Source: Trypanosoma brucei
Taxonomy: Eukaryota
Assembly: GCA_000002445.1 (NCBI GenBank)
Contig: CP000071.1
Coordinates: 1,088,001-1,152,000, forward strand
Reading direction: 5' to 3'
DNA length: 64,000 bases
A program made the translations under genes and the position numbers. Shown here one piece after another: positions 27,251 through 49,476 of this stretch (position 1 is the stretch's first letter; every line of letters begins with the position of its first letter). The notes under the pieces are model-generated. The model saw nothing but the letters and a program-made list of their open reading frames with translations. It did not search any database and was not told the DNA's origin.

Positions 27251-27379
27251 GAGGGGGGAAAAAACCACGAAGGCGGTAAGGAAACGATTGTAATTGTAAG
27301 AAGAAACTTAGAAAGTTATAAAACGCTGTTTGGATAAAGCAAAACGGAAATTATCCGCCCTTATATAGCATTCGGCCGA

Positions 27380-28898: not shown

Positions 28899-28914
28899 CA
28901 CCCACACCCACACC

Positions 28915-28947
<33 letters not shown>

Positions 28948-28948
28948 G
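28899..28948. repeat. Compound (CCCACA)n-(CA)n-(TA)n microsatellite
   Basis: cacccacacccacacccacacacacacacacacatatatatatatatatg. Confidence 0.9.
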
Positions 28949-29297
28949 AGGCGGTGGAATTTCATCAAAGGAACGCAGGGAGAGGGAACAGAAACGACTG
29001 AGACGACAAACATCAATCTCAACCTCTTTCAAAGCAAAGCAGACATTATCCTCTGCTATTCGTAAGTAAGTGCAAATGTACTTCCTTCCATCACCCCAAG
29101 GGGGAAAAAAAACAATCTATTCCCCTTCTTTTCCTGTAGTCTTACATCCTCTTTTCCTTTTTTTTTTTGCATACGCTGAATGCACACCAGATAATCGAGG
29201 GAGTAAAGGTATGAGGGGGAGGTGGAGTATGACCACCTCTTTGTTTCCCCCCTCTCTGTCTTTTTTACTTCAAGAATATTTATAAAACAACATTTAA

Positions 29298-29316
29298 ATA
29301 TATATATATATATATG
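29298..29316. repeat. (TA)n microsatellite followed by the same TGAGGCGGTGG motif found after the 28932-28948 TA tract
   Basis: atatatatatatatatgaggcggtgg occurs twice, about 365 bp apart. Confidence 0.8.
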
Positions 29317-29902
29317 AGGCGGTGGGAGACGTAATGCTGTTGGCTCGATCAAAGCAATACCAGCTGTCGTAACTGTCATCGTAATTGCGTGGCTCAAACC
29401 CTAAAACAATTTATTTTTCCTTCCCCTCCCCCCCTCCTTAAGGATAATTTGTTGGATAAATTTAATGCGCACACGCCCTCTGCGGTTTGTAAAGGAGCAT
29501 TCGAGACACCTTTTAATATTGCAGAAATAGTGGTTGCATCGTGAAGCAATCATAGAAGAGGAATGGGGTGGGAGGGGGAAAAAAAGCAAGAAAAAAAAGT
29601 AAATTCGTGGGTCAAAGCTAATGAGGAGAGAAAGCAAAGAGATAAAGGTATAAAAATGTTGGGAAAAGTAGAAATAAAGGAGTGAGTGGAAGATCCCTCC
29701 TCTTCCTTCCTTCTTTTTTTGTTTTTTTTTGTCAAAGAAGAAAAAAAACTTAATTAGTGAGCGCTTACGCTAACGCAATCAGTGCTAAAATCCCAACCAT
29801 ATCCCTAAAACCATATATACACTCACCACCACCAGAAACCCCCCCCTCCTCCCCAATTGAGCAACCAAAGCAAACTTCCAAAGCCCACACTGTGGAGGGA
29901 GT

Positions 29903-30289
29903 TTAACTCTTATTAGCTATTACCTGTCCAACTATATTCATAATACTAAGCACGATCATAAATACACCAATAATGCAACTCGCCACTTCCTCCCCCAGCA
30001 GCAAACCACCCATGAATAAATAAAGAAAAGCACGGCCAACATATGATAGGAGAAACTTTACCATTTCATTGTGTTCCATCATTCCCAATTCAGCCGACGG
30101 CATGATCACAGCAAAGAAAGTCACATATAAGCGCGCTATGAAAACGCGGGCTGCGTCAATATTCTCCACGGTATACCACATAACTTTGTATAATGTCATT
30201 GTACCACTGGCAGCGGCACCAACAATACCCATAATCATCAATGCCAGTTGGAAACTATTTTTGCCGCTCATAGGTTGCAAGTCACTCAT
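29903..30289 (-). CDS. Small (128 aa) multi-pass membrane protein, about 4 TM helices (TVP15/COPI-associated-like or TMEM-like). Family uncertain.
   Basis: Compact ORF between two (TA)n-containing spacers with four hydrophobic segments: IMGIVGAAASG, YVTFFAVIMP, AFLYLFMGGLLL, IIGVFMIVLSIMNIVG. Confidence 0.4.
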   Translation of the reverse strand: MSDLQPMSGKNSFQLALMIMGIVGAAASGTMTLYKVMWYTVENIDAARVFIARLYVTFFAVIMPSAELGMMEHNEMVKFLLSYVGRAFLYLFMGGLLLGEEVASCIIGVFMIVLSIMNIVGQVIANKS

Positions 30290-30464
30290 TTTAACTCAGC
30301 CACAGTTGGTATGCACAATATTTTGTCCCTTGTGTGATGTCACGCTCTTAATACCCCTTTTCTTTTTTCTTTTTTCTTTATTATTATTATTTATTTATTT
30401 TTTTTTTCCAATCAAATGGTTCTCTTGTTTTTTCAGAAAAAAAAAATCCAATTCCTCACTGGTC

Positions 30465-30467
<3 letters not shown>

Positions 30468-30501
<34 letters not shown>
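30468..30501. repeat. (TA)17 microsatellite
   Basis: Direct reading. It lies between the PCD-like gene and the 128-aa membrane-protein gene. Confidence 0.9.
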
Positions 30502-30502
<1 letters not shown>

Positions 30503-30880
30503 GCGCACCTATTAATATTAATTTATTTAAATTCACTTATGGATAAATGAGTTATTCAGAGGACACGGTTTTTCTTCTTCTGTGTGCCTGTTGGTCGTTT
30601 ATGTCACCACACTAACTATTTTTTTTTAGTGGTTGTTGGCTTTTTTATTCTATATTTTAAAAATTCTAATGTTTGTTAATTTCATCCAAAAAAAGAAGTT
30701 AAATTAAACAAATAAGGAAACACAGTACAAAAAAAAACAAAAAATAACATTCATGGAAGAGAAACGAGCAAATAACAATAGTAATGGCAATAGAAGTGTG
30801 AATATAACATTCATCCAAAACACAGACACCACGCAATCAACTGAGAAAAAAAAAGGGAAGAAACTCGTGCAAATGAATAC

Positions 30881-31690
30881 TTACGGGGATGTGCAAGAAG
30901 AAGGAGTTCCGTCATTATTATTGTTATTACCGTCTTTTGAAAGAACAGCTTCCCATGAAGTTGCTATGCCCTCTACAGTTTCCGCGAGTGGCTTCTGGCG
31001 TTCCTCCTCGCGACGCTTCAACGCTTCCGCCACACATTCACCCATCATATCCTCAATTACGGAACGTTTAACCACTCCATCAATGATTACCTTTTGTTGC
31101 CGTTTGCTTTTCTTAAACATGTTGTATTGATCGTTCAAAAAGGCGGCGAGACGAGCCTCACGTTTACTGAGACCCCGGAAAGATGGCGAATAAATATATA
31201 CCGTTATCCTCGTCCCTTCCCAAGTTACGTTTGGGTACTTGTCGCTTCCGTAACAAAAGGCCCACAGACGGCCCATGAAAAGATACGCGTCGCGAAAATT
31301 AGCGAAATCAAAATCGCGCTTTAGCGCCCCCTCACCGGTAAAAATGGTCAGTGGGGCGGGACCCATTTCTTCTTTTTCTTCTTTTCGAGCATCAGCTCCT
31401 TCAGCATCGGCATCGGCATCAACACACGGAAAACATTCATCCACCGGCACCCAACCTTTCACGCTTTTCAGAAAATCCTCCACTTCATCTTCCCGCATCC
31501 TCCGCTCATGACGGGCGTAAGAGGCCCCATGCTGAGGGTTGGAGTTGTGAAAAATGTTAAAACCATAATCCCCTTTGCAACGGCGTGTGGAAACATCACT
31601 TGTGCGGATATTTCCCAAACATCCGCGCGCAGTCGCCATACAACAGGAGCGGCGCATGTGCAAATGAGTGTGAGATGTTAGCACATTCAT
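30881..31690 (-). CDS. Pterin-4a-carbinolamine dehydratase (PCD/DCoH)-like domain protein with degenerate catalytic motif
   Basis: The C-terminal ~90 aa KGWVPVDE...LKRDFDFANFRDAYLFMGRLWAFCYGSDKYPNVTWEGTRITVYIYSPSFRGLSKREARLAAFLNDQY align to the DCoH core (FxFxDFxxAxxFMxRVA...DHHPEW..V...V.I.LSTH...GLSxRDxxLAxFI). The catalytic HHP is replaced by KYP and STH by SPS. The ORF-track start (31909) reads through (TA)n, so the start is trimmed to Met at 31688-31690. Confidence 0.5.
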   Translation of the reverse strand: MNVLTSHTHLHMRRSCCMATARGCLGNIRTSDVSTRRCKGDYGFNIFHNSNPQHGASYARHERRMREDEVEDFLKSVKGWVPVDECFPCVDADADAEGADARKEEKEEMGPAPLTIFTGEGALKRDFDFANFRDAYLFMGRLWAFCYGSDKYPNVTWEGTRITVYIYSPSFRGLSKREARLAAFLNDQYNMFKKSKRQQKVIIDGVVKRSVIEDMMGECVAEALKRREEERQKPLAETVEGIATSWEAVLSKDGNNNNNDGTPSSCTSP

Positions 31691-31833
31691 AACGCGATTA
31701 AAAGCACTGTACCTAAGCAACTTTTTCTTTTGATGTGGGCTCTGTACAAAGCGCCCTTTCGTTCCCGACGAGAGCACATGAAATAAGACGAAGAAAGAAG
31801 CTGTGTGGTTAAACTGGAAAGGCACTTGAGTAT

Positions 31834-31857
31834 CATATATATATATATATATATATA
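31834..31857. repeat. (TA)12 microsatellite in the 5' region of the PCD-like gene
   Basis: Direct reading. Confidence 0.9.
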
Positions 31858-32812
31858 AAGACACACACACGCCCTGCAAACGTGTAAGTTGACGAAAACC
31901 ACGACTCAAAACTTCGTCCCTGTTTGGTAGTATTAATAACTTTTTTTTTTAAACGTGCATCAAGGGAAATATTTGAACCCGCGCGCACTCTGGCACCTCG
32001 TGCCGGCGTTATTCTTACTTAACGTGTGCCTGATAGTTTTTTTTTTTACTTCGCTGGAGCCGTTCTTTGCTTCCTTCCCTCCCTTCTCTCGCTGTCTCAT
32101 CTCCTTTCATTTCTCGCATGTCATAACAAAATCCGTAGAGTCACATGCTCAAAAAGAAAACAAAAAAAAAAGAAGCAAAGAACCGAAGAAAACACAACAA
32201 CCGAAAACTAATGGAGTGGAATGATGCTTCAATTGTAAAACTCAAATCAGCAGAAGTACACATGAACCCTCCCGTAAAGTCACCGCTTCCCCACCATCCG
32301 CTACTCATTCCATTCCCTTTTTTTCCCACTACTCTTGTCGTTCACAAACATAAGCCAGGCAAACACAGACATAAAATGGGAAATATATATATATATATGT
32401 AGAAACAAAATCCACATATCAACTTACCTTCATCAGGTATTGCGTCCTTCTTTCCCCCTTTCCAAAAGCATGCTGCGTTAACCATATTTCGACTTATTTC
32501 CCACCGCAACCTCAAACGAACACACCTCAATAATCCAACCAGTGACGTTACGTCCCCCGTCACCCCGCATGGCACCGCAGGAACGCTGGGCTCAGTGCTA
32601 AACTCAACTTCACGAGCGATTTGCAAAAGCGGGGTTGCCGTGCTAAACAAAAAAAATTCCGAAGGGAAAATGACAAGAACGTAAGAAAGAAAAGGGTGCA
32701 CGGCAACATACGAAATGCATGAACAGATAGTCCTACGTATATGTGTACGTGCGACCGCGTGTGAATGTGAATGTACTCAAACTTGGATGGTGTGTGTGTT
32801 CGTGTGGAAATC

Positions 32813-34264
32813 CTATGCCGATTCTTGTGGCACTTCTCGGCGTGATCGCTTCTGCTTCGGTGTCTCACTCACTTCCTCACGCTCACCTTCGGCTTCAGCG
32901 CTTTGAGCGGTCCGTTGTTTCTTTGCACGGCGGCGAATAATTTTTTTGTATTGTTCGAGCGCCTCCTCCATAGCTACACGGTTTGAGGGCGGTTTATTAC
33001 CCGTGTCAAAGAAATTGAGCCGCGCTTCCACCTGTTCTCGCAATTTCTCGCCAAAGACCTGCGGCGGGGCGTCCATGAAACAATCAATGCGGCACGCAAG
33101 GGCAGCTTTGTTGGCAAGGTAACGAGAAATCTTACCCCTATGCTCCTTAGCGGCGCGCTGAATGAAGGTGGAATGGAAAATAAGGCCGTATTTGGGGGTG
33201 TTGCCCTTCCGCTTTTTCAAGGCACGGAATAAAGCCTTCTCTGCACCGAGAATTTGGATGGTACTCGCAGGCGATTTGGCGAGGTTTGTAAGGGAACCGG
33301 CTTTCGAGATGAGCTTCGCACCGATGTTCTGCCCCATCAACTCCGTTAAATTGGGTGCCACAAGCATCATCTTATCCACAAGGTACTGTTGTAACGACTC
33401 TCGGTAGTCTCCAAGAGACACGACACGTTTCATGAAGCGGCGAATGTTTGACCAGTCAACCTCTGCCATATCGCCACCCATCGACGTGACGGCTTTCTCA
33501 TACACACGAGCCGCGAGAGCTTCATCACCCTCGAGAATCTCAGCGATTTGTTGCGTTACCTCCTCAGTATCGCGCTCTTCCAGCGTGCTGCGGCTACCAA
33601 TTAACAGAGCGACTTTGGAATACTTGAGTGGCTCCGGCACCTCCTTAGCCAATTCAGGAAAGTGCCAGCCGTACCATTCCTTTACGCGCATTCCAAGAAG
33701 GTTGACGCCCTTGTCCATGTGCTCTGTCAAAGCAGAAGATTGAATAATCATGTTGTCACTGCGATGAACGTTGAATTTCACTTTGTTGCGGGAGAAGGCG
33801 TGGCCGAGACCGCACTGCGCACGAAGTATATCCTTTTCTTGATGCTCGGGCAACAATTTCTCGGCGTGCAAACGCAAACAGCGGCACATCTCCACCACGT
33901 TTTCATTGCACAACACAGCGAATTTCAGCTCATCGTGAATGGCACTCCCCAACTTGGGGTCTGACACACCAAGCTCCCAGTTGGCTTCACCCTTTGTTGC
34001 CTTCTTTGACAGAACCGAAGTCAAAAAGTTATTCAGGAAAGGACTTACAATAGATTCATTAATGCAAACGGCGTCCTCCAACGCATTCTCCGGTGACTGA
34101 TAAGGTGCGAAGGATAGAAGTTTCACCCACGGGGAAAACGTGGCAAACGTTTGAAGGTCCTTCTGTAGTGCAACATCACCAGCACCAATTTCCTCCGTGG
34201 TGAGTACCTTAAACAGGGCATAACCCGTGGGACCCTCATATAAGAGATAAAGTGTTTTTGACAT
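32813..34264 (-). CDS. Nop56/Nop58-family box C/D snoRNP core protein
   Basis: 483-aa ORF. N-terminus MSKTLYLLYEGPTGYALFKV. Nop domain QILGAEKALFRALKKRKGNTPKYGLIFHSTFIQRAAKEHRGKISRYLANKAALACRIDCF. Charged K/R/E-rich C-tail. Confidence 0.8.
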   Translation of the reverse strand: MSKTLYLLYEGPTGYALFKVLTTEEIGAGDVALQKDLQTFATFSPWVKLLSFAPYQSPENALEDAVCINESIVSPFLNNFLTSVLSKKATKGEANWELGVSDPKLGSAIHDELKFAVLCNENVVEMCRCLRLHAEKLLPEHQEKDILRAQCGLGHAFSRNKVKFNVHRSDNMIIQSSALTEHMDKGVNLLGMRVKEWYGWHFPELAKEVPEPLKYSKVALLIGSRSTLEERDTEEVTQQIAEILEGDEALAARVYEKAVTSMGGDMAEVDWSNIRRFMKRVVSLGDYRESLQQYLVDKMMLVAPNLTELMGQNIGAKLISKAGSLTNLAKSPASTIQILGAEKALFRALKKRKGNTPKYGLIFHSTFIQRAAKEHRGKISRYLANKAALACRIDCFMDAPPQVFGEKLREQVEARLNFFDTGNKPPSNRVAMEEALEQYKKIIRRRAKKQRTAQSAEAEGEREEVSETPKQKRSRREVPQESA

Positions 34265-34480
34265 TGCCTATAGTGGTTCTCCTCTTATCCCCTCCCCTCC
34301 TTCCTTCCTTTTTTCTTTTCGTGTTTTTTTTTTGCTCTCGACCTGTCCTTTTTTATTTATTTATTTCTTCCGCTTCCTGGACTGTGTATCACCTTTTATT
34401 GCTTCGTGTCGTATGGTTCAACCAACCAAAGTTGCAGTACCAACGGAAACGTGCAATGTAATAGCGGTAATGACGCGCAA

Positions 34481-34600
34481 CCAACCAATCGAATACAAGG
34501 CCAAAAAAAAAAAACACAAAACGGGAGAATGTGAGAATGAGAATTCAAATAAATAAAAAAATAAGCAAATGAATAAGTACAGGTACTAAATATATCGTAA
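34481..34600 (-). promoter_or_regulatory. Candidate polypyrimidine tract (minus strand) and trans-splice acceptor region for the Nop56/58 mRNA
   Basis: Plus-strand purine-rich block, so the minus strand is pyrimidine-rich (T runs). It lies 220-340 nt upstream of the ATG at 34264. Confidence 0.3.
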
Positions 34601-35979
34601 GACATAATCCACTCCTTCTCTTCCTCCTTTATTCTTTTTTTTTCTTTTTCAATCATGAAAGGTACCCCACACACACCCATTCCTTGCCACTGCAGTGACT
34701 TCCTTATTTTGACTGCGCAATCGCAAAACACTAAGCAGATATTAAAGAATTTTGAGGGTAGTAGTAGTAGTAGTGGTGGCGGTGGCGGTGGCGAAGGAAT
34801 AAATAATCCGCTCATAATAATATTAGTCAAAAAACAAAACAAAACAACAAAACATCGAACGCACGGACCGCGAAAAATATGATAACGCATCCAATATGGT
34901 TCTGGTAGTTGATCTGAAATAATATCGTTTTTGTTTTTTGTTTCTTGTTTTTTGCAATTCTCTCGTTTTCTTTCACAAATATATAGCAGTGAGTAAAGTA
35001 ACCCAAAACACGGGAGAGGATTAAAAAAAAAAAAAACACAACAGAAAATAGAAGCAGTAAAGAGAACTGAATATATTCGCTGTGGAGAAGGAGAGCATAA
35101 AAATTAAACGAACAATATGACGTCCATCAAATGTCCTCACCTTCTTTTTGCTTTTTTTTTCTCTTTTGCCTTCCTTGTAGGTTCGTTCAACTCTCCTTTG
35201 ATTACTTCGCCGCGTGGAAAAAAAAAATGAACTATGAACAACAAGATAATAGGAAAAGTAAAAAACCTCGTGAGGGAGGTTTGTAGCAAATAGCAACTAA
35301 CCAAATCACAATAATAATAGTAATTATAAAGATAGCGAACGGAGCCAGAACACGCAAGAGAAAAAAAGGTTAAGAAAAGTGGACAACGAAGTGAAGAAAA
35401 ACCTTCGACATGACCAACAACAACAACAGCAACACACATGAGTAAGGCGAATACAAGGGAGATGTAGTGAGAGAGAGAGAGAGATCGAGAGGGAGTTAAA
35501 GGGTGTGCGCAGAAAAACAACAGCTACAACATCACCAATAAATGTTCCCAATGCAAAAAAAGAAAAAAAAGAAAAAAAAGAGAGAAAACAAAAACAAAAA
35601 CGTGTAAAAAAAAAACACTACAATACATACGCACACCTAGCGAGAAGGAAACCACACTTTTACGAACCGTCTCATACCCAGGCGTGAATGAACAAAACAT
35701 ATTAATCCTCTTTATTTTTTTTTCAAATGAAACAAATCAAGAAATGTACGAAAAAACAAAAAGTAATAGGGAGTGTAAAAACGACGACAATAACAACACC
35801 AAAAAAAAAACGACTCGTTTTTTTTTCTTTAGTTTTAATTAGTTTTCTTATTTGCTCCCTTCCTCTCTCCGACCAAGCGAACGCACATACTCATACATTT
35901 TATGAACTTTTTCTTTTTCGTTTATTTCCCTCTCCCTAACAAACAAATATAAATCAATAAGCAGATACAAACCTCCAGC

Positions 35980-36000
35980 TATATATATATATATATATAT
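35980..36000. repeat. (TA)10 microsatellite
   Basis: Direct reading. Confidence 0.9.
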
Positions 36001-36407
36001 CGTTTAAACTTTCCCACCCCAACCCCTTTACGTTTTGATTTTTTTTTAAATATTATTTGACGCCGACTGCTCCGCTCAATTTGCACGTCGCAGGGTAAAT
36101 AGTATCACAAAAGGACGAATGGCTTGTAAACGTATTTTAAACACACACGCACACAAACAAAAAAAGGAACAGGAAAACAGACGTATATAAATACAAGTGC
36201 GTACGAACCTTTTACAGGAAGCTAAGAGTCAACTTATTTTTGCTCGTATCCTCCAGCTTTTCTTTTTCTTTTTTTTGTTTTTCCCCCTCTTCACTTCCCT
36301 TACTTCTGCTCTCCTTGACTTTTTTCTTTTTTTCTTTTTCTGTTGAATACCATTGCACTTTTTCTTGCATTATCTGCTGCCACCGTAGGTCGTATGCAAT
36401 AGAAATG

Positions 36408-37637
36408 TTAGGGCATAGAGGTGGGAAGATCTGACACTTCCATAAGACTATGAGTCCGCAGCATATGGTCACAGCCGAGTACTTCCTTCGCATTTGTGGT
36501 GCCATTTGAAAGTGCGAGTCGTTGTTGTATGATATTCTCTCGCTTTAACCGCCGTGCCTCAAAGCCACGAACCTCCGCCAAGAACATTTGATGCATGGAG
36601 AAGATGTCGCTCACCTCTGGGAAATGGAAAGGACCACTGCATGCCTCCGTAAGATCCAGTGGGTCATATAGAGATGCAAAATAGGGATGCTGCAAAGCCT
36701 GCTCAGCACTGATACGCCGCGCTGGATTGAATTCAAGCATACGACTGAGCAAATCTATTGCTTCAGCATCGGCAGTGGGCACCACATCACACCATGGCCG
36801 GGGCTTGCAGTGCGAGAGGGCGTTACGAAGGTAATTCCGCGCCTGCGAAGATGAGAACATATCAAGGTGGTCTTCCTCCGTGGGCGCTCCTACAACTTCC
36901 ACAATTTTGTCTAACTGGTTGTAGAATGTAGAACCACGAAAAAGGGCACGACGGTTGAAAAGCTCACCCATTACGCACCCAGCAGACCACATATCGACAA
37001 GTTTCGTGAATCCTTTGAACTGCATCACGAGTTCCGGTGCGCGGTACCAGCGGTGCGTCACGTAGTGTGTTTTATTTGGATCCTGCGTATCCTCTCGTGC
37101 CAGATTGAAGTCACATATGGTGATGTCATTGTTCTCAGAGACAAGTACATTTCCTGGGTGCAGATCACGATGTACAACACCCGCTTCGTGCAGAACATGC
37201 AATCCAAGTATGATGTGGTACATGAAGAAGCGGATGTGCTGGGGAGAAATATCAATGCGCTTATCGTGTATAACTTGTGCCAGGTCGGTACGCATGAGGT
37301 CGGTGACGAGGTACAGTTTGTGCTGGCCCGGGGGCTGCAGATGTATGAACATGTTCTTCAGTCCGAGTATGTTTGGGTGGTGGAAGTGGTTCAGCAGCAT
37401 AATCTCGCGCAACACCCGTTTGCAGAGAAAAGGATCGGAGAGGATATTTATGGTCCGACCCTCAGAGATGGTGTTGAACACCCGTTTAATCGCCACGGGA
37501 AGATCGCTTTCATCCACGCCTGCAAAAACAGCCCCATAGCTCCCACTGCTGAGAAAACGGTGCACCGTATAACGAGAATTCATCTCCCGTAATTCCACAA
37601 TGAGCTCTTGCATCAGCTCCTCGCCTTTAGAACCCAT
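36408..37637 (-). CDS. MAP-kinase-like (CMGC) protein kinase with atypical catalytic-loop, DFG and activation-loop motifs
   Basis: 409-aa ORF. Gly loop SSGSYGAVFAG, VAIK, αC Glu, HRDLHPGNV (Lys to His), ICDFNLARE (DFG to DFN), activation loop THYVTHRWYRAPE (T-H-Y), and a CMGC-type insert. Confidence 0.7.
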   Translation of the reverse strand: MGSKGEELMQELIVELREMNSRYTVHRFLSSGSYGAVFAGVDESDLPVAIKRVFNTISEGRTINILSDPFLCKRVLREIMLLNHFHHPNILGLKNMFIHLQPPGQHKLYLVTDLMRTDLAQVIHDKRIDISPQHIRFFMYHIILGLHVLHEAGVVHRDLHPGNVLVSENNDITICDFNLAREDTQDPNKTHYVTHRWYRAPELVMQFKGFTKLVDMWSAGCVMGELFNRRALFRGSTFYNQLDKIVEVVGAPTEEDHLDMFSSSQARNYLRNALSHCKPRPWCDVVPTADAEAIDLLSRMLEFNPARRISAEQALQHPYFASLYDPLDLTEACSGPFHFPEVSDIFSMHQMFLAEVRGFEARRLKRENIIQQRLALSNGTTNAKEVLGCDHMLRTHSLMEVSDLPTSMP

Positions 37638-38726
37638 GTTGTCAAACCTTGTCAGTCTACACCCAAAAGCAGAAGACCGAGGTTAATGACAAAATTTCCA
37701 GAAAAAAATATGGGGAAAAGAAACCGCAAATAGTCTTCTTTGATTCGAAAATATGAAGTAGACCTCAACCGAATACATCAGGAGAGGTACGAAGATGTGC
37801 AAGTAGAAGAGTGCAAAATATTAATGTATAGATATTTATACAATCGCACGTATGGTTTTAATTTTCCTTCGTTTCGATATTAGAGCCCTTCCCTCCTCTA
37901 ATTGCCTGCCAGCTGTGCCGCTCTTTTGCCTTGTTTTCTTTTTTTGAATACACCTTTTGCTACTTGTCAGCGAGTCCATGCCTGGATGTGCACGACGCCG
38001 CTGACCTTCGGCATCGCAATTCGTCACTCACATGCTTAAAAAAATAATTGTTTTTCCCAGCATGGCTTTCAACGCATCCGAAAGTCCCTCCTTGCAGATT
38101 GTTCATTTATATGCCATATACATACAACATTTACATATATGTATATGCTTATTTATACGCATAAGCACTCATACTTTTTGTGTTGCTACTTTCCTTCGCA
38201 GGCACATGCGTAGTGAAATGTGGGAGACAGAATTCACACACATATGGGTGTGAAGGGAACAAGCGGATATGAAGAAAACAAACAAAAGGCACGCAAGTTC
38301 CTCCGCATACGCATATTTACATGCAAGAGAGCGTCACCATCGACCGCACAAACGTGGAGGCACAGTGAGAGCAACAGTAGCGAGGAAAAGAGGAAAGTGG
38401 AAAAGACCAAATTACAAATCAGCAAAAGCTAATTCCACCGTACGCCGTCTCACCCTGACATGATGCGAGTGGGCAGACGAAAGAAAAAAAAAATAATTAT
38501 ACAGCCACAAATCTGCCCCACACTAACATAAGCCGACAAACAAAAAAAAGCAGAAAGAAGGGCAAGAAAGATACGAGAGAGGCACCTCACTCCTTTTCTC
38601 AGCTCCTTTTTTTTCTTTTTCTTTTTTCCATGCTCATGGCATCCGGCAGCGGCGTGTGTACGTATATTTTTGTATGTGTATGTGTATGTGTAAAGGATGC
38701 ATATGATCCTTCTCTACCAATCGTAT

Positions 38727-39227
38727 CTAACCCTCTTTTTCATCCTTCAGTACATCTCTCTTGTCAGCAGCGGCAACACCACCACCTGTTGTTACGCATG
38801 GGGTGAGCCCCGGGCCGCTGCCGTTATAAAATTTCCCACTCCATACTTTCCCTCCAACATCAGTATATGTCCCAAGTCCATGCATACGGTTACCACGCCA
38901 ACCACCATCGTACATTGCACCGGAGGCCCATATGTATGTCCCGCAGCCTTCCATCACGCCGTGCACAAACTGCCCCGTGTAGGAGTCACCACTGACAAGA
39001 AATCGGAGTGTACCATTGCCATGCATTTCATCTTCAGACCAGTTACCTTCGTAGTGAATAAGAGGACTACTGTACGTTCCTTGTCCGTGGCGGCAACAGA
39101 AATTACTGTCGGTAAGTCGTCGCACACCACCCGTGTAGCGTGCCATTTCCCGCTGATGTACGTAACTCCCATTTTCTTCAACGAAAACCTGCTCCTCCTT
39201 CCTCTCCACCTTCTTTTTGGGTGGCAT
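38727..39227 (-). CDS. MORN-repeat protein
   Basis: 166-aa ORF with at least 5 consecutive MORN units: YEGNWSEDEMHGNGT, YTGQFVHGVMEGCGT, YDGGWRGNRMHGLGT, WSGKFYNG. Confidence 0.7.
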   Translation of the reverse strand: MPPKKKVERKEEQVFVEENGSYVHQREMARYTGGVRRLTDSNFCCRHGQGTYSSPLIHYEGNWSEDEMHGNGTLRFLVSGDSYTGQFVHGVMEGCGTYIWASGAMYDGGWRGNRMHGLGTYTDVGGKVWSGKFYNGSGPGLTPCVTTGGGVAAADKRDVLKDEKEG

Positions 39228-39762
39228 TGAAGTAAATCACCTTTCTATACTAATAATGGCACAGACTGTCGTTTAGAAAAAAAAAATAGGTACGCACTTA
39301 TAGGGAAAAGGTGAAAAAGAAAAGAAAAGAAATGGGAACTGGCGGTGATGAGAGAAAAATAAAAGGAAATGTCTTCAGACACATCCGACAACAACTGAAA
39401 TACGAAAACTGCGCAGTGCGGTAGTACCAGGACAGAAGAAAGCAGGGAAAGCTGTTGAAACAAAAAAGCAAAGTTAACACTTCTTCATATTCACCCTCTT
39501 CCTCCCGCTACCCAAACCTTGAAATAACTGCTTTGCACACTATTTCCCAGACAGCCTCCTTCCCCGCATGCGCTACAGGCGAGTATGTTCAGTTGAGGAC
39601 ATAAAAGTACACATAATTGTTGAAAATGCTACGAGCACTTTCTCACATATCTACATTGAAAATCTGGTGTTGCCCTTTGCCCCCACAATTATCTCTGCAT
39701 TTCCGCACCTCCATGAGGTCTCGCGGAGGGCTGGTTAAATCTTCAGGGGACAGGGAGTGAAC

Positions 39763-39764
39763 GT

Positions 39765-39795
<31 letters not shown>

Positions 39796-39796
39796 C
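39763..39796. repeat. (GTGTGC)n/(GT)n microsatellite
   Basis: gtgtgcgtgtgcgtgtgtgtgtgtgtgtgtgtgc. Confidence 0.9.
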
Positions 39797-39841
39797 TATC
39801 CGGTCTGCTGCTAACATTCCTCTCTATTTTTCCTTTTAAAT

Positions 39842-40522
39842 CTACGCACTGTTCGCAGCGTCGTATCCCTGAAGCCGTGTCTGAAGGTGCTGTTTACACG
39901 CGTCAGAGCACACGCAGTGCACGAACGGTATATCACGATGACCCGATTTGTTGTTGACTGTAACAAGCACTTCATGATCCCGCATTCTTACGCAACAGTT
40001 GGAGCAATCCACCGAGTATAACCGTGGGGCAATAGTTATGGGAGCTGCTCCATTGACCTCCTCAGGAAGTAGCAGTGGATTGTTTTCCAGCAGCAGCACC
40101 TCCAGACGTGGTAGAAAGAGAAGACCCCCGGGGAGAACACGTAATTGATTGTTTTCCACACGTAGTTCTTGTAGACTCTTCAGCTGCCACATCTCCATCG
40201 GCAGTTCCTGAAGTAAGTTGTTACCCAAATGCAGGCGTTCTAAGTGGGAAAGACGACCCATCTCTCGTGGAACAGTCGTCAGCCTGCAATAACTTGCATT
40301 AAGCCAACGCAGTCGGCCTAACTCCCCAATTGCTGATGGGAGGCTTCCAAGGGAATAGTTATTGTCAATGTGCAGTATCTCCAGTGTGCCACGCAGGGCC
40401 CTAATTTCAGGAGGAACTGCCGTGGTACCCTCTTGATAACTGAAGTGTAATGTAGTGGCATTCTCATCGAACGCCTGCTGTATTGCATTCAGGAAATTCT
40501 CTTCTGCATCCATGATCGACAC
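39842..40522 (-). CDS. Leucine-rich-repeat protein with a Cys-rich C-terminal tail
   Basis: 226-aa ORF. LRR units LEILHIDNNYSLGSLPSAIGELGRLRWLNASYCRLTTVPREMGRLSHLERLHLGNNLLQELP...LQELRVENNQLRVLP...LEVLLLENNPL. C-terminus CSNCCVRMRD...HCVCSDAC. Confidence 0.6.
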   Translation of the reverse strand: MSIMDAEENFLNAIQQAFDENATTLHFSYQEGTTAVPPEIRALRGTLEILHIDNNYSLGSLPSAIGELGRLRWLNASYCRLTTVPREMGRLSHLERLHLGNNLLQELPMEMWQLKSLQELRVENNQLRVLPGGLLFLPRLEVLLLENNPLLLPEEVNGAAPITIAPRLYSVDCSNCCVRMRDHEVLVTVNNKSGHRDIPFVHCVCSDACKQHLQTRLQGYDAANSA

Positions 40523-41044
40523 CGATCTGTCCGTTTGGCCCCCTCGTCTATTTGGTTGCCCTTGCCGGCGGTGTGTTATTCCTTTGGTTTTGACTTCGTG
40601 TCTTGACCTCTATATCCTTGGTGTCTATTTCTCAATCGGTCTTCTTCTAGTTTTGCTGATCACACCTACAAAAGAATACTGGCCCGCCAGTCACAAGTAA
40701 ATCATTGGGAGGGGAGGGGACGGAGTAAGAGAAGCAATAGCAGTCAAACGTCAGTATTGTAAATGTGACGTGCAATTACCCCATGGTCGTGGTTGCGAAG
40801 CACATCCACGAGTTGACTAAACAAAGGGGAAATCACGCAAGTCTTCCCTCTTTGGAAGGTACGACTTACGAACGTGCTCATACAATATGGCACACCCAAA
40901 CGGTGCAGCAATACCGTTTAGAATAAGACAGAAAGCTCGCTAACACCGAAACACCCAACGCGACTACCATCAGACAAGAAAAAGTTTGGCGCGCACCAAC
41001 AACCAATCCAACCATTAGTAAGGAACATAGACAAATTGGCTACA

Positions 41045-42856
41045 TCACACACAGTGCTCCTCTAAGCTGACAAGTGAGGCGCCGAGCGTCCACGCCGTCT
41101 CGTAACCGTCAATTTTCTTGGCGATGTGAAGCTCCTGATCAAGAGGGTAATGAAACCCATCGCGCAGCAACGCAACTACGTAGGACAGATGTAGACACTC
41201 CAATTCAGGCCTCAGCGAGGGGTGAACACTTACCTTCCCCTTATTTTCACGACGGAGTTGCTCCACCGATTTCATCGACTTGCAAACCTGGCTCGCGATA
41301 CCGATGATATCCTGCAGACGGATGACTGTTGTTCCTGCTGTCATGTGGGGCCTCAAGAGGTCGTGGTAGAATGAGAATGCATACACGGGTCCAGATACTG
41401 CAGTTCGCACATCGGGCTGAAAAACACCATTAAAGCCACAGCTTTTGCTACTACACTCGCCACCGGAGCGAACCACATGTTTCCGGAAGAGAGCTACACA
41501 CTCCTCCATGGATGGTGTTACACCTCCTCCTCCCACACCGTTGGAAACTCCACTCTTCTCATGAGCATATCCTTGTGGAAAGCATGGAAAAGCACGTAGT
41601 GGACCGGACTTTGCGGCAGTAGTTGTCCCCCCGGTTGCCACCGAAGTCGCCACAGAAGCTAGGAGTTGCTCTCTCGCGGCGTTCAATCCATTACCCTCGT
41701 AGCTGTGCTGATACAGCTTTATCGACTTGCCATTGATGGCAAACGTGTCTGTGAACTCCTCGTGGCCCTCAAGCACCTCTGGGTCATTCGGCCGCATTAC
41801 AACCTGCGTGGAGCCTCCGCCAAGGTCAAGTATAGTAGCCGTTTCCTTGGTACCACTTAGGCTCCCGATGAGGAAGTTAACCGTGAGCCACGCTAGCGGT
41901 CCCTCCTCACGTCCCTCAAGGATTCTCACAGACCCAAGCTCCGAGTGGACCCAAAACGGCCCCTTCTGGAACTCACGACGAACGGCGTCCAGCACTCTCC
42001 CGGCCTGTTCTGCACCAATGCGTCGCAGCCCTGCGGTCGCTTTCAGTTCAATACCTACACACGCGTGCATATCTGTTGGTACACGGGCTTTTGCTGCGTC
42101 GAGTAACGGCACCAAAGAGGCAGCAGCTCCTCTGGGATCGCTAAACCCCGACAGCGGCTCGTGGTTCTCAATGAAGAGTTCATCTTCCAGCTTCAAGTAG
42201 GGTAGCAACGAGGCATGCGCACCATTTGGTGCAGAATCTATGTTATCGTATGGGTTTGAGGTCAAGTTATACCTGTAAACGTGCACACGACTGCCAGTGC
42301 TACCAGCGTCAAACACAACACTGTATCGCCTTGGGGATTTGTTACACGCTGCCAATGACGGTGTCGTATCAGCTGCCTTTTTCAACCAACTTTCCGTTTG
42401 GTGTGTAAGACTGTCAATTAGATTGGCCGCCCGTTGGAGACTCACGGCGGCGCTACCAGTCATATTTCCTCCTCCGTCATTAACCGACGGACCTTCACCA
42501 TTGTTGGAGGTCGCATCTTTTCCTCCACATGACGCCGCCGGCTCCCCAGTGCGGCCCTTTCCTTCCTCAAGGAGTTTAAGTTTCTTCTTTAGCTCATCAC
42601 GATCCTCTTTCAGGCGCTTAAGTGTCCCCGCAGCCACCTTATGAGTGTTCCTCAACATCTCTTGTTGCGAAACACACCGTGAGTCACGCCCATCCGCATC
42701 TAAAGCGTGCTCATCCCTCGTAAGTGAATGGTACCGTGACAAACCAATGAAGTAGCCTGCGGCGTACAACAGTACCAACGTCAGTAACGTAAACAATGGA
42801 AAAATAACAAAAGGCGTCAAAAAGCGCGACTGCTTGGGGTGGTCTGAGTGCAACAT
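41045..42856 (-). CDS. GDA1/CD39-family nucleoside tri/diphosphatase (apyrase), type II membrane-anchored
   Basis: 603-aa ORF. N-terminal TM anchor FVIFPLFTLLTLVLLYAAGYFIGL, then a K/E-rich coiled stalk. Apyrase conserved regions VVFDAGSTGSRVHVY (ACR1), ATAGLR (ACR2) and LDLGGGSTQ (ACR4). Confidence 0.75.
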   Translation of the reverse strand: MLHSDHPKQSRFLTPFVIFPLFTLLTLVLLYAAGYFIGLSRYHSLTRDEHALDADGRDSRCVSQQEMLRNTHKVAAGTLKRLKEDRDELKKKLKLLEEGKGRTGEPAASCGGKDATSNNGEGPSVNDGGGNMTGSAAVSLQRAANLIDSLTHQTESWLKKAADTTPSLAACNKSPRRYSVVFDAGSTGSRVHVYRYNLTSNPYDNIDSAPNGAHASLLPYLKLEDELFIENHEPLSGFSDPRGAAASLVPLLDAAKARVPTDMHACVGIELKATAGLRRIGAEQAGRVLDAVRREFQKGPFWVHSELGSVRILEGREEGPLAWLTVNFLIGSLSGTKETATILDLGGGSTQVVMRPNDPEVLEGHEEFTDTFAINGKSIKLYQHSYEGNGLNAAREQLLASVATSVATGGTTTAAKSGPLRAFPCFPQGYAHEKSGVSNGVGGGGVTPSMEECVALFRKHVVRSGGECSSKSCGFNGVFQPDVRTAVSGPVYAFSFYHDLLRPHMTAGTTVIRLQDIIGIASQVCKSMKSVEQLRRENKGKVSVHPSLRPELECLHLSYVVALLRDGFHYPLDQELHIAKKIDGYETAWTLGASLVSLEEHCV

Positions 42857-43094
42857 GTGTTCAGTTTGCCCCTTTTACTCTTATTCTTACAAGCAACGAA
42901 ACCGAGAAAAAAAGTTACGCGTGCGGCACCGCAATACCGGATGTGCCGGAAACCCCTTCAGAAACAGAGCGGCTAGAGCAAATCACTTGAGCGCCGTCAA
43001 CCTGTGGTTAAGGGATGGGAACTAATAGGTGCAACCAAAGGCTCAATGGTGCGGTCGGATACGTGTCACACACCTTTTTGCTGTTCCCGTTTGA

Positions 43095-43130
43095 GTATAT
43101 CTATATATCTATATATCTATATAGATATAT
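43095..43130. repeat. (ATATCT)n-like imperfect repeat
   Basis: tatatctatatatctatatatctatatagatatat. Confidence 0.8.
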
Positions 43131-44714
43131 GGAAGTAAGAAAGGCAGTTCCAGGTTACAATAGGTTGCTACCTGATGGACCTCACTAATCTTTGCCGCGC
43201 GGTCAAATAGCAGTGGCGTGACGAGGCACCTATCGGAATGATGAAGTGTACGCACACAGCTGCAGATATGTTTTGTGCTATGGGGACGCGAAGGGGAAAA
43301 ACAAGCAGGGGTGGAGCAAAGAGGGAAAAATTTTAAAACACGAGACCACACGGAAAGGTTCACATGTAAAGGAAAATGAAGGTCACAGTGATATGTGGGC
43401 CACCACCAAAGCGAACAAAAAGCCGGGGACAAAAAGAAAGGATTGATGGAAAGCCAAACGTATACAATTAAGCAGTAAACATTGTAGGTTGAACCGTCGA
43501 GCCTTACAGAGGCGTAGAAGCGCACCGCTGCAGATGTGCATTCATCCTCAGATATGGTTTCGGCTGGGGACATGGGCAGTTTGGACACACGTATGGTGTG
43601 CCGTAGGTGAAAAAAGAGGTTGTCTCATCGTAAACTCGTTTGCCTGCAGCTCACCTTCACCTCCCCACACCCTTTCCCCCCCATCACGTGGAGGAGGACC
43701 GTTAGTTGCACCGATAAGCAACACTACGGCAGAATCGCTACGCAAAATGGCACCGGTACGGTACCCCACGCAACGCAGATATGCGCAGTTGGTGACGAAA
43801 TAGCTCCAGGTCCTAAGGAGAGTGAGGTGAAGCGGATAAATAGGCGCAACTGAACTCTACAACGGTACACAAAATAGGCACATGTCGTGCTACTACAAGC
43901 AAAGAAACAATAACATGCCCTTCCCTAAACGTGTGTTTCCGTCGCTGCATTTTTTGCGTGTCATCCTTCCCCCCTCTCAGCCTCGTAAAAATATTCGTTT
44001 GTAAACCCTCGTGGTACTATCTGAAAGACCATTATCTTCCAAATTGGTGCCCCTCTCCCTCCTCATCCCACGACACGACTTGATCACTTTTTCTTTTTCT
44101 TTTTCAGCCTTCGCCCCTTCTACGCCTTCGCTTACCCCACGTTTAGTGGTGCCTTTACGCAAACACACACAAACCTGCCGGTGCCACCTGCTACCTTCAG
44201 CGCAGTCGCCGCCATCCGCCTTCGAATGCCCCCCAACGCACTTTCTTATGTTACCCATCAACACATTGCCACTATGGCCGTCGTCTCAAATGGTGGGCTC
44301 GGCGCACCCACGTCTCGCAGCGAGAAGAGATCACGAGCGTAAGCGGCAACGAAATAAAACAGCAACCGCTTACAAGTACTAGTTGGAGACGAGATTGCAA
44401 GCAGATCCGTAACCACAAGACGCGCACGCTCAAAATTGCAACAAATGGAGGTATTGTCCATTGTTACACCCGCATACTGTCCGCAGGGAGAAAACAGAAA
44501 GTAAAACATCATTATGCTACAGACGAGGACAGACGCAGGAGTCATCCCTCCTTCCCATCAAGATTTCAGCTCGTGTATATGACTACCGCAGCGCATGCGA
44601 ATTTCCCCTCTAAGATTACGATACCCAAACGTGCAAACCACGATCGTTACAACAGTGGTCGTAAGTCACCTTCACATCGCTCATTCCTTCATTAATTTAG
44701 AAAATAAAAACGTT

Positions 44715-45887
44715 CTACGGGTCTCCGAATGTGCGGCGACCGCTCTCCCGTTCAGCCTCCGCTCGCATGATGCGCCGCTCAAGTTCATTACGCTTCTCAA
44801 TGTACCGCTCGCCCTGTTCATAGGCTTCGCGTTGTATAGCCTCCACTACTGAAACCTCATGCCTCAAATATTGTAGAATCTCCTGGTGGTCTCCACTGTC
44901 CACGCGACGATGCAATTGTGAATGAGTGCCAACACTTGAAACCGCAGACGATCCGGTGATGTCGGGAGTGGTAACAAGAGATGAATCGACGCAGGGGCCC
45001 GTACCGGCATCTGCGGAAGAGTGCACAAGAGAGTGTCGGAAACTGCCGCCACAACTTGTGGACTGTGTTTGAAGACGGTCGACAAACTCCTGCATTTGCT
45101 GAAGTGAAGAGTGCTCCGAAAGAAGGCTGTCCAAATGCTGCCGCTGACTTTGAAGCCTCACCAGCTGCTCGTTCATCGATGCCAGCGTTACTTCCTCCTC
45201 GCGTTGCAGCCGGCGCTCCAGGCTTAAGCTGCTGGCCTTTAGATCCATAAGTTTCTGCGCTTGCTCCGACTTCAACGCCTCCTCCCTATGCAATCTAACC
45301 TCCAGTTGGGCCTTCTGGCGGCGAACCTTATCCACCCGGCGCATCAGCTGATTTGTTATGCTCTCCCCTTCCCTTTCCGCAGCCTTGTATGTTTCCCTCA
45401 TACCCTCGTGCAACTTTGCCACATCCTCACGCTCACGGATAATGGTGCTTCGCAGCTTACGAATCCTAGTTCGAAGGTCGAGAACAGCGTCGCAGAGCTC
45501 TGCCCGGGACATTGTAAGAGCCGCCGCCTCCGCCTCTGCAGTCATATGCTCGAAGTCCACGAGTGACGACGTTTCTTCATCGCTTCTTGTTCCACCAGTT
45601 TGCCTACCGCTTCCACAATTGTTCCTCCTCTCGCCACGTCGCCCCGATAGCGGCAAGGTGTGAATGTCCAGAAGCGAAAGCAATATCGGTGCACCCGTCT
45701 CGACACTTGTCCCAGTCATGGAAGAATGAGCAGAACGACGCGTTGGGGTGTGAAGGAGACTACTATGAAGATGCCTGGAGGGTCGAGCGGATGTGGGGAC
45801 CGCCGATGCGCTGTTACTGATGGTCCCAAGGAGAGAGGGGTTCCGCACAGGAGAAATGGAACCGGAGCAATTCATACTTGCTCTCAT
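44715..45887 (-). CDS. Coiled-coil hypothetical protein
   Basis: 390-aa ORF. S/T-rich N-terminus, then long heptad-like segments: LRTRIRKLRSTIIREREDVAKLHE...QLEVRLHREEALKSEQAQKLMDLK...ERRLQREEE...LVRLQSQRQHLDSL. The start codon is uncertain. Confidence 0.45.
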   Translation of the reverse strand: MRASMNCSGSISPVRNPSLLGTISNSASAVPTSARPSRHLHSSLLHTPTRRSAHSSMTGTSVETGAPILLSLLDIHTLPLSGRRGERRNNCGSGRQTGGTRSDEETSSLVDFEHMTAEAEAAALTMSRAELCDAVLDLRTRIRKLRSTIIREREDVAKLHEGMRETYKAAEREGESITNQLMRRVDKVRRQKAQLEVRLHREEALKSEQAQKLMDLKASSLSLERRLQREEEVTLASMNEQLVRLQSQRQHLDSLLSEHSSLQQMQEFVDRLQTQSTSCGGSFRHSLVHSSADAGTGPCVDSSLVTTPDITGSSAVSSVGTHSQLHRRVDSGDHQEILQYLRHEVSVVEAIQREAYEQGERYIEKRNELERRIMRAEAERESGRRTFGDP

Positions 45888-49397: not shown

Positions 49398-49476
49398 CAG
49401 ACACGCACACATACATATTAAACCTACTTTACAACCGGTTCCCCTCCTTCGGCTTTGGCCATACGGTGGAGCCCCT

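What the first reader, a model, noticed from the sequence alone, without database searches (positions are those of the whole stretch)
36408..37637. MAPK-like kinase with K-to-H in the catalytic loop, DFG-to-DFN, and a T-H-Y activation lip
The kinase has an intact Gly loop, VAIK Lys, αC Glu, HRD Asp and APE. It reads HRDLHPGN where eukaryotic protein kinases have HRDLKPxN; that Lys contacts the γ-phosphate. It has DFN instead of DFG, and a T-H-Y dual-phosphorylation motif instead of TEY/TDY/TGY. Three simultaneous deviations at functionally critical positions suggest a pseudokinase, or a kinase with an unusual regulatory mechanism. Altered DFG and catalytic-loop residues are known in some low-activity kinases.
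Basis: seen in the sequence. Interest (0 to 1): 0.5.

Follow-up and report, generated by a model that had tools for sequence, protein, structure and literature searches.

The report
Trypanosome MPK10: known atypical MAP kinase
The gene is the Trypanosoma brucei copy of MPK10, an unusual but already studied MAP kinase; its odd motifs are real and ancient, and in the Leishmania counterpart, which has a crystal structure, they go with a working enzyme, so this is not a dead kinase.

Summary
Window 36408..37637 (minus strand) encodes a 409-aa MAP kinase with HRDLH160PGN, D176-F-N178 and T190-H-Y192.

It is not new. The protein is 100% identical to 'MAPK10, putative' of Trypanosoma equiperdum. Published RNAi primers for Tb927.8.3770 match the ORF exactly. 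It is 75% identical to Leishmania major LmaMPK10 (PDB 3PG1/3UIB), which carries the same three motifs.

For Leishmania MPK10 the literature reports:
- DFN holds the kinase in a DFG-in, spine-aligned state.
- Parasite-purified enzyme phosphorylates MBP, and this needs K51, T190 and Y192.
- A C-terminal tail with the DHMxRTxSxME motif auto-inhibits. The window protein has this motif at residues 390-400.

T-H-Y phosphopeptides are published for T. brucei (pT) and T. cruzi (pT, pY). The pseudokinase reading is therefore not supported, while 'unusual regulation' is supported.

New here, and modest:
- His160 and DFN co-occur in 56 of 56 relatives, a clade (98/100 bootstrap) spanning kinetoplastids, diplonemids and a euglenid.
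- THY is confined to the branch of close, kinetoplastid relatives.
- The P+1-loop Thr that normally hydrogen-bonds the lost Lys is also replaced, by His195.
- The nearest other clade (HRDxTPxN) lost both residues too.

How His160 substitutes for Lys is untested. No T. brucei kinase assay was found in the searched papers.

The parts
36408..37637 (-). Complete coding sequence of MPK10 (Tb927.8.3770-type), 409 aa plus stop
   Evidence: ORF list and translation. 100% identical to P0001 'Mitogen-activated protein kinase 10, putative [Trypanosoma equiperdum]'. Pfam Pkinase E=3.1e-56, residues 23-320. PDB 3PG1/3UIB E=1.5e-185. Published Tb927.8.3770 RNAi primers match at 37540..37559(-) and 37076..37095(+) with no mismatch.
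37527..37550 (-). Glycine-rich loop S30-S-G-S-Y-G-A-V37; the first Gly of GxGxxG is Ser
   Evidence: Ser at this position in the kinetoplastid and diplonemid members; Gly in the Petalomonas-like members.
37482..37496 (-). VAIKR with the ATP-anchoring Lys51
   Evidence: K51A kills the activity of the Leishmania orthologue (PMC4169501). Invariant in alignment A1.
37401..37415 (-). alphaC helix segment VLREI with Glu78
   Evidence: E78 invariant in A1.
37149..37172 (-). Catalytic loop H156-R-D158-L-H160-P-G-N163; His160 replaces the canonical Lys
   Evidence: HRDLHPxN in 56 relatives. Among the 146 representatives newly returned by the 1.84-billion-protein search plus 4 seen earlier (P0041, P0044, P0051, P0076), only 5 carry H+DFN, all MPK10-like.
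37104..37112 (-). D176-F-N178 in place of DFG
   Evidence: In LmaMPK10, DFN aligns the R and C spines in an active-like conformation (PMC4169501).
37062..37070 (-). T190-H-Y192 dual-phosphorylation lip
   Evidence: pT190 peptide from T. brucei Tb427.08.3770 (PMC9633767). pT and pY in T. cruzi (PMC6380580). T190 and Y192 are required for activity in Leishmania.
37050..37061 (-). V193-T-H195-R196: P+1-loop segment in which His195 occupies the position of the conserved Thr (PKA T201)
   Evidence: Thr in 119 of 120 Lys-loop MAP kinases; H/Y/S/L and never Thr in the 56 His-loop sequences. Gap-free alignment. Coordinates derived from the residue numbering.
37032..37040 (-). APE motif (200-202), end of the activation segment
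   Evidence: invariant in A1.
36651..36668 (-). Y324-D-P-L-D-L329, acidic patch where MAP kinases carry the common-docking motif
   Evidence: conserved in orthologues. The assignment as a docking motif rests on my own knowledge of ERK2/p38 and was not tested.
36438..36470 (-). C-terminal tail motif D390-H-M-L-R-T-H-S397-L-M-E400 (DHMxRTxSxME); Ser397 corresponds to Leishmania Ser395
   Evidence: [quoted passage not shown]

Best explanation
This is the Trypanosoma brucei-group orthologue of the kinetoplastid MAP kinase MPK10 (Tb927.8.3770). It is most likely a catalytically competent, atypically regulated MAP kinase. Proposed mechanism, step by step. (1) Asn178 in place of the DFG glycine keeps the DFG segment 'in' and the regulatory and catalytic spines assembled without activation-loop phosphorylation. 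This is shown for the Leishmania orthologue and inferred here from identical motifs. (2) Output is held down by the C-terminal extension (about residues 360-409), which carries the conserved DHMLRTHS397LME phosphosite motif. This is shown in Leishmania; here only the motif is shown. (3) Full activity still needs phosphorylation of Thr190 and Tyr192 in the T-H-Y lip by an upstream kinase. The requirement is shown in Leishmania; pT190 has been observed in T. brucei and pT/pY in T. cruzi. (4) His160 in the catalytic loop, together with the changed P+1 residue His195, takes over the gamma-phosphate and transition-state contacts normally made by the Lys-Thr pair. This step is inference only.
For: Identity: 100% to 'MAPK10 putative' of T. 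equiperdum; Tb927.8.3770 RNAi primers match exactly; the published Tb427.08.3770 phosphopeptide equals residues 182-196; Tb927.8.3770 is called MPK10 in PMC4621835. Orthology to the solved LmaMPK10: E=1.5e-185, 75% identity over 357 aa, all motifs and residue numbers the same. Activity and regulation in Leishmania: DFN and spine alignment; MBP phosphorylation abolished by K51A, T190A or Y192F; a 3.5-fold gain on deleting the C-terminus; the DHMxRTxSxME motif and pS395; reviewed as constitutively 'DFG-in' with an auto-inhibitory C-terminus; identified in an activity-based chemoproteomic profile of the Leishmania kinome (PMC12816314). Constraint: H160 and N178 are invariant in 56/56 relatives down to about 41-44% identity. 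The clade is monophyletic in 98/100 NJ bootstraps and includes Petalomonas cantuscygni and Sulcionema specki. The arginines aligned with those that bind the phospho-residues in ERK2 (R157, R181, R196, R199; assignment from my own knowledge) and the VAIK Lys, alphaC Glu, HRD Asp, catalytic Asn163 and DFG Asp are all intact.
Against: I found no kinase assay for the T. brucei protein itself in the searched papers. Bacterially expressed Leishmania MPK10 has only weak auto- and substrate phosphorylation, so intrinsic activity may be low. RNAi of Tb927.8.3770 gave no loss of fitness in bloodstream forms (PMC3894213 supplement), so its role in T. brucei is undefined.
Confidence: 0.85

Rival explanations
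1. Pseudokinase or scaffold: the K-to-H, G-to-N and lip changes abolish catalysis, and the protein signals only by binding partners.
For: The catalytic-loop Lys binds the gamma-phosphate and is regarded as critical for phosphotransfer (PMC9704751). Recombinant Leishmania MPK10 is nearly inactive on MBP. There is no RNAi fitness phenotype in T. brucei bloodstream forms.
Against: Lys51, Asp158, Asn163 and Asp176 are all present. Parasite-derived Leishmania MPK10 with the same motifs phosphorylates MBP, and this is lost in K51A, T190A and Y192F. Over-active MPK10-deltaC is toxic only when catalytically competent. MPK10 is among the kinases identified by activity-based chemoproteomic profiling of Leishmania.
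Confidence: 0.05
2. Sequencing error or strain-specific variant at these codons.
For: None found.
Against: The same residues occur in 56 independent sequences from genomes, transcriptomes and metagenomes and in two crystal-structure entries.
Confidence: 0.01
3. An active kinase whose histidines (His160, and in kinetoplastids also His191 and His195) form a titratable cluster in place of the Lys-Thr pair. Phosphotransfer or lip conformation would then respond to pH or a metal, a sensing function beyond the published DFN and auto-inhibition model.
For: The Lys and its Thr partner are replaced together. In the branch of close relatives, THY and VTHR co-occur in 42 of 43 THY sequences. Recombinant Leishmania MPK10 shows different pH optima for auto-phosphorylation (6.5) and substrate phosphorylation (7.5).
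Against: This is entirely inferential. His160 is equally conserved in relatives that I take to be free-living, and these have Tyr or Ser instead of His195 and TDY instead of THY. No coordinates could be inspected with these tools.
Confidence: 0.09

Closest known systems
Leishmania major/donovani MPK10 (LmaMPK10, LmjF.10.0200; PDB 3PG1, 3UIB)
   Same: 75% identity over 357 aa. Same numbering for K51, H160, D176-F-N178, T190-H-Y192 and the same VTHRWYRAPE. The C-terminal DHMxRTxSxME motif is present.
   Different: Outside the motif the C-terminal tail diverges; 38-53% identity in Trypanosoma species according to PMC4169501. The biology may differ: Leishmania MPK10 matters for amastigote differentiation and survival, whereas T. 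brucei RNAi shows no bloodstream-form fitness loss and a phosphoproteomic comparison found the protein only in the stumpy-form-enriched fraction.
Canonical MAP kinases (ERK1/2, p38)
   Same: Full-length similarity (ERK2 chains E about 1e-72). TxY lip, RWYRAPE, HRD Arg, and the CMGC fold region align without large gaps.
   Different: Catalytic-loop Lys to His160, DFG Gly to Asn178, P+1 Thr to His195, first G-loop Gly to Ser30, a 9-residue insertion after VAIK relative to the HRDxTPxN clade members in alignment A1, and a 50-residue C-terminal regulatory tail. Activation is not by a DFG/spine switch.
Euglenozoan HRD(I/L/V)TPxN MAP kinase clade (named MPK11 in Leptomonas records; solved relative 4QNY)
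   Same: Nearest non-MPK10 relatives (about 40-44% identity). They also lack the catalytic-loop Lys (Thr instead) and the P+1 Thr (Met in 75 of 78). The clade is also found in euglenids and diplonemids.
   Different: They keep DFG and TDY. The sister relationship to MPK10 has only 52/100 bootstrap support.

Membership tests
Eukaryotic protein kinase / MAP kinase (CMGC group) | Protein kinase catalytic domain | tested here: met
   Pfam PF00069 E=3.1e-56, 191 bits against a cut-off of 31.7, residues 23-320 covering profile positions 1-263.
Eukaryotic protein kinase / MAP kinase (CMGC group) | TxY dual-phosphorylation motif followed by xxxRxYRxPE in the activation segment | tested here: met
   T190-H-Y192-V-T-H-R-W-Y-R-A-P-E, aligned gap-free to TEYVVTRWYRAPE of P0167.
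Eukaryotic protein kinase / MAP kinase (CMGC group) | Closest solved relatives are MAP kinases over the whole domain | tested here: met
   All 60 listed PDB matches are MAP kinases; ERK2 E about 1e-72 over residues 17-344.
Eukaryotic protein kinase / MAP kinase (CMGC group) | Canonical Ser/Thr-kinase catalytic loop HRDLKPxN and P+1 Thr | tested here: not met
   His160 and His195. This is a deviation within the family, shared by the experimentally active Leishmania orthologue, so it does not remove membership.
MPK10 orthologue group (kinetoplastids) | HRDLHPGN + DFN + THY together | tested here: met
   identical in 3PG1/3UIB.
MPK10 orthologue group (kinetoplastids) | C-terminal DHMxRTxSxME motif with the regulatory Ser | tested here: met
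   D390-HMLRTHS397LME400; motif defined in PMC4169501.
MPK10 orthologue group (kinetoplastids) | Groups with MPK10 sequences in a tree, apart from other MAP kinases | tested here: met
   H/DFN clade recovered in 98/100 NJ bootstraps. This is a rough distance tree, not maximum likelihood.
MPK10 orthologue group (kinetoplastids) | Kinase activity dependent on K51, T190 and Y192; auto-inhibition by the C-terminus | not testable with these tools
   Shown only for Leishmania. Needs a biochemical assay of the T. brucei protein.
Pseudokinase | Loss of at least one of VAIK Lys, HRD Asp, DFG Asp | tested here: not met
   K51, D158 and D176 are all present and invariant among relatives.

The most novel reading that the evidence does not exclude
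The Lys-to-His change is one half of a coupled rewiring of the two classic Ser/Thr-kinase signature positions: the catalytic-loop Lys and the P+1-loop Thr, which in PKA form the T201-D166-K168 hydrogen-bond triad. On this reading the rewiring arose at the base of Euglenozoa and is maintained in an active MAP kinase. In kinetoplastids the resulting histidine cluster (His160, His191, His195) would make catalysis or lip conformation sensitive to pH or a metal. That would be a natural example of phosphotransfer without the 'indispensable' catalytic-loop lysine.
Probability: 0.12. Interest if true: 0.5.

Novelty: already known. Interest (0 to 1): 0.15.

Why it matters
As a finding it mostly confirms what is on record. 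MPK10 is a named, structurally solved, functionally studied atypical MAP kinase and a candidate drug target in Leishmania. The T. brucei gene is annotated and has been through kinome-wide RNAi screening.

Some residual value remains:
- The catalytic-loop His, which no paper I could read discusses, is as invariant as DFN.
- The His is coupled to loss of the P+1 Thr.
- The combination appears to predate the split of kinetoplastids, diplonemids and euglenids.

Together these make MPK10 a natural test case for how a protein kinase can work without the catalytic-loop lysine. They also identify parasite-specific active-site residues for selective inhibitors.

Tried and rejected
- The structure paper (Horjales et al. 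2012, Structure 20:1649) could not be read. What it says about His160 is unknown to me, and its content is cited only through PMC4169501 and PMC7618733.
- Full-text searches for HRDLHPGN/HRDLHP and HRDITPAN/HRDITP found nothing. PMC4169501 does not mention histidine.
- The guess that the gene was Tb927.8.3550 was wrong: that is TbMAPK3. The correct identifier, Tb927.8.3770, came from the phosphopeptide and the primers.
- My first regular expressions gave artefacts. 'CDLKI' was picked up instead of the true DFG in the Thr-loop clade (correct), and THY was missed (fixed).
- One search for a PKA K168/T201 citation returned nothing. Another returned a paper that did not state the contact. The triad statement was finally found in PMC2604893.
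- 4QNY appears in a paper about L. donovani MAPK4, but I did not open that paper. I do not call it MPK4. I describe its clade by its motif and by the name 'MPK11' that Leptomonas records carry.
- Structure prediction and fold search were not run. A crystal structure of a 75%-identical orthologue exists, and the tool returns no coordinates, so the His160/His195 geometry could not be measured either way.
- The tRNA scan of the window was empty.
- 'His and Asn are strictly mutually coupled' is rejected in one direction. DFN also occurs with a Thr loop in one metagenomic sequence, P0250, while His never occurs without DFN.

Full report
**1. What is in the sequence**

Window 36408..37637 on the minus strand is a single uninterrupted ORF of 409 codons plus stop. 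There is an in-frame stop 17 codons upstream of the ATG and no earlier start.

The translation contains:

| Feature | Residues | Window coordinates |
|---|---|---|
| ATP-anchoring Lys | V-A-I-K51 | 37482..37496 |
| alphaC Glu | Glu78 | 37401..37415 |
| Catalytic loop | H156-R-D158-L-H160-P-G-N163 | 37149..37172 |
| DFG position | D176-F-N178 | 37104..37112 |
| Activation lip | T190-H-Y192 | 37062..37070 |
| APE | A200-P-E202 | 37032..37040 |

A BLASTP alignment with a canonical MAP kinase carrying HRDLKPSN, D-L-G (the DFG position) and TEY (P0167) is gap-free through this region. It puts His160 on the catalytic-loop Lys, Asn178 on the DFG Gly and THY on TEY.

The glycine-rich loop reads S30-S-G-S-Y-G-A-V, so the first Gly of GxGxxG is Ser.

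**2. What gene it is**

- The protein is 100% identical to 'Mitogen-activated protein kinase 10, putative [Trypanosoma equiperdum]', seen on a 2.48-Mb contig.
- The gene-specific parts of the RNAi primers published for Tb927.8.3770 (supplement to the kinome-wide screen PMC3894213) occur once each in the window. Both lie inside the ORF and have no mismatch, at 37540..37559 (-) and 37076..37095 (+).
- The phosphopeptide EDTQDPNKtHYVTHR reported for Tb427.08.3770 'MAP Kinase' (PMC9633767) is residues 182-196 of this ORF.
- Tb927.8.3770 is called MPK10 in PMC4621835.
- All ORFs of 200 aa or more that have Pfam domains lie on the minus strand, which fits a trypanosomatid polycistronic unit. They include BT1 transporters, Sec24, isocitrate dehydrogenase, an exonuclease, Nop58-like, MORN, LRR, a GDA1/CD39 nucleoside phosphatase, a DEAD helicase, PSP1 and WD40 proteins.

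**3. Comparison with the solved and studied orthologue**

The best PDB matches are 3PG1 and 3UIB, Leishmania major MPK10. The match has E=1.5e-185 over residues 2-359 with one single-residue gap on each side and 75% identity over 357 aligned residues. HRDLHPGN, CDFNLAR and KTHYVTHRWYRAPE are letter-for-letter the same, and the residue numbers coincide.

The open literature on Leishmania MPK10 states the following:

- DFN in place of DFG aligns the regulatory and catalytic spines. This gives an active-like conformation without TxY phosphorylation (PMC4169501 citing Horjales 2012; review PMC7618733).
- Bacterially expressed enzyme is weak. GFP-MPK10 purified from parasites gives robust MBP phosphorylation, which is lost in K51A, T190A, Y192F and the double mutant.
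- Removing the C-terminal domain raises MBP phosphorylation 3.5-fold. The truncated enzyme is toxic in amastigotes only if catalytically competent.
- The tail carries a conserved DHMxRTxSxME motif with a stage-regulated phospho-Ser395.
- pY192 and pT190/pY192 peptides are detected in vivo.

The window protein has the tail motif as D390-HMLRTHS397LME400.

Other published evidence:

- In T. cruzi the orthologous peptide is phosphorylated on both Thr and Tyr (PMC6380580).
- MPK10 is among the kinases identified by activity-based chemoproteomic profiling of Leishmania.
- Its deletion costs fitness across the amastigote and infection arms of the L. mexicana kinome screen.
- In T. brucei, RNAi gave no loss of fitness in bloodstream forms.
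- A phosphoproteomic comparison found the T. brucei protein only in the stumpy-form-enriched fraction.

**4. What the comparative data add**

*His160 and DFN.* Among the relatives retrieved, all 56 sequences with HRDLHPxN have DFN. An exhaustive HMMER search ran against 1.84 billion cluster representatives. I tabulated its 146 newly returned best hits plus four seen earlier (P0041, P0044, P0051, P0076). Only five carry H+DFN, and all are MPK10-like. Seven carry a Thr loop, and the rest have Lys.

*Age of the clade.* In a rough NJ tree the His/DFN group is monophyletic in 98 of 100 bootstraps. Source records place members in these groups:
- trypanosomatids: Trypanosoma, Novymonas, Phytomonas, Porcisia, Angomonas, Strigomonas;
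- the diplonemid Sulcionema specki, whose 'Sspe' record prefix is resolved to that species;
- the euglenid Petalomonas cantuscygni.

The prefixes Tbor, Rhum and Hpha I read as Trypanoplasma borreli, Rhynchopus humris and Hemistasia phaeocysticola, from my own knowledge. The His160/Asn178 pair therefore most likely dates to the base of Euglenozoa.

*THY is younger.* It occurs in the branch of close relatives. The named members of that branch are kinetoplastids, and most of the rest are unnamed metagenomic or assembly sequences. There are 42 sequences with THY there, plus 2 with TYY and one divergent THY sequence with VTLR. Diplonemid and Petalomonas-like members have TDY or TAY.

In the His-loop clade it is never Thr (His 44, Tyr 7, Ser 4, Leu 1). 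In the Thr-loop clade it is Met in 75 of 78. In the window protein it is His195.

In PKA this Thr (T201) hydrogen-bonds the catalytic Asp166 and Lys168 (stated in PMC2604893). Lys168 binds the gamma-phosphate and is critical for phosphotransfer (PMC9704751). The Lys was therefore not lost alone; its partner went with it.

These two positions are also the classic motifs in kinase subdomains VIb and VIII that distinguish Ser/Thr from Tyr kinases (my own knowledge of the Hanks and Hunter classification).

*The nearest other clade.* It has HRD(I/L/V)TPxN, DFG, TDY and VTMR. Leptomonas records name it MPK11, and its solved relative is 4QNY. It shows the same double loss and is also found in euglenids and diplonemids. 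Its sister relationship to MPK10 is weak, at 52/100, so a single ancestral loss is possible but not shown. One metagenomic sequence (P0250) combines a Thr loop with DFN.

*The C-terminal motif.* The R-[TS]-x-S tail motif extends to deeper-branching sequences of the clade (including Tbor, which I read as the bodonid Trypanoplasma borreli) and to diplonemids, but not to the Petalomonas-like group. This is wider than 'trypanosomatid-specific' as described in PMC4169501.

**5. Mechanism**

| Step | Status |
|---|---|
| ATP-anchoring and catalytic residues intact | shown here from sequence |
| T-H-Y lip phosphorylated | shown in vivo in T. brucei (Thr) and T. cruzi (Thr, Tyr) |
| Tail motif present | shown here |
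| DFN locks a DFG-in, spine-aligned state | shown in the orthologue, inferred here |
| Thr190/Tyr192 phosphorylation required for activity | shown in the orthologue, inferred here |
| C-terminal tail auto-inhibits | shown in the orthologue, inferred here |
| His160, with the altered P+1 residue, supplies the contacts of the Lys-Thr pair | inferred only |

I could not inspect coordinates, so the geometry of His160 and His195 remains untested.

**6. Verdict**

The 'pseudokinase' interpretation is not supported, and the alternative 'unusual regulatory mechanism' matches the published model.

The gene and its DFN and THY peculiarities are already known, so novelty is 'already known' and interest is low. 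The only points I did not find in the readable literature are:
- the invariance of the catalytic-loop His;
- its coupling to loss of the P+1 Thr;
- the Euglenozoa-wide age of the combination;
- the parallel Lys/Thr loss in the HRDxTPxN clade.

These are worth a sentence to a kinase specialist but do not change what the gene is.

Noticed in passing
window 37050..37061 (-), residues 193-196: The P+1-loop Thr (PKA T201 position) is His195. Across about 250 MAP kinase activation segments, loss of the catalytic-loop Lys always goes with loss of this Thr: His/Tyr/Ser/Leu in the His-loop clade and Met in the Thr-loop clade.
   Followed up: yes
relatives P0052-P0120 (e.g. P0069 L. major, P0094 Bodo saltans); PDB 4QNY: A second euglenozoan MAP kinase clade (HRD[ILV]TPxN, DFG, TDY, VTMR; named MPK11 in Leptomonas records) also lacks the catalytic-loop Lys. 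It is the nearest relative of MPK10, but the sister grouping has only 52/100 bootstrap support.
   Followed up: partly
P0250 (JGI metagenome protein, 358 aa): A MAP kinase combining a Thr catalytic loop (HRDITPAN) with DFN, TDY and VTTR. This is the only case seen of DFN without the His. Its organism is unknown.
   Followed up: partly
window 37527..37550 (-): The glycine-rich loop reads SSGSYGAV, so the first Gly of GxGxxG is Ser. This is conserved in kinetoplastid and diplonemid MPK10, while the Petalomonas-like members have Gly.
   Followed up: partly
window 840..2765 (-) and 5216..7141 (-), with 3084..4247 (-) between: Two BT1-family (folate/biopterin transporter) genes of 641 aa that are 98% identical, separated by a JAB/MPN-domain gene. 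This looks like a recent tandem duplication or gene conversion.
   Followed up: partly
window 1..64000: All ORFs of 200 aa or more with Pfam domains lie on the minus strand, which fits one polycistronic unit. Six long minus-strand ORFs have no Pfam match: 12892..14829, 19346..23971 (1541 aa), 27380..28474, 44715..45887, 49477..50496 and 55111..57336. No tRNA genes were found.
   Followed up: no
window 36438..36470 (-) and relatives P0026-P0049: The C-terminal R-[TS]-x-S phosphosite motif, described as trypanosomatid-specific, is also present in deeper-branching sequences of the clade (including one I read as Trypanoplasma borreli) and in diplonemid relatives (e.g. HMPRSGSF, RTNSD). It is absent from the Petalomonas-like group.
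   Followed up: partly
window 45888..49476 and 57337..60942: Two stretches of about 3.6 kb with no ORF of 200 aa or more on either strand. They were not examined.
   Followed up: no
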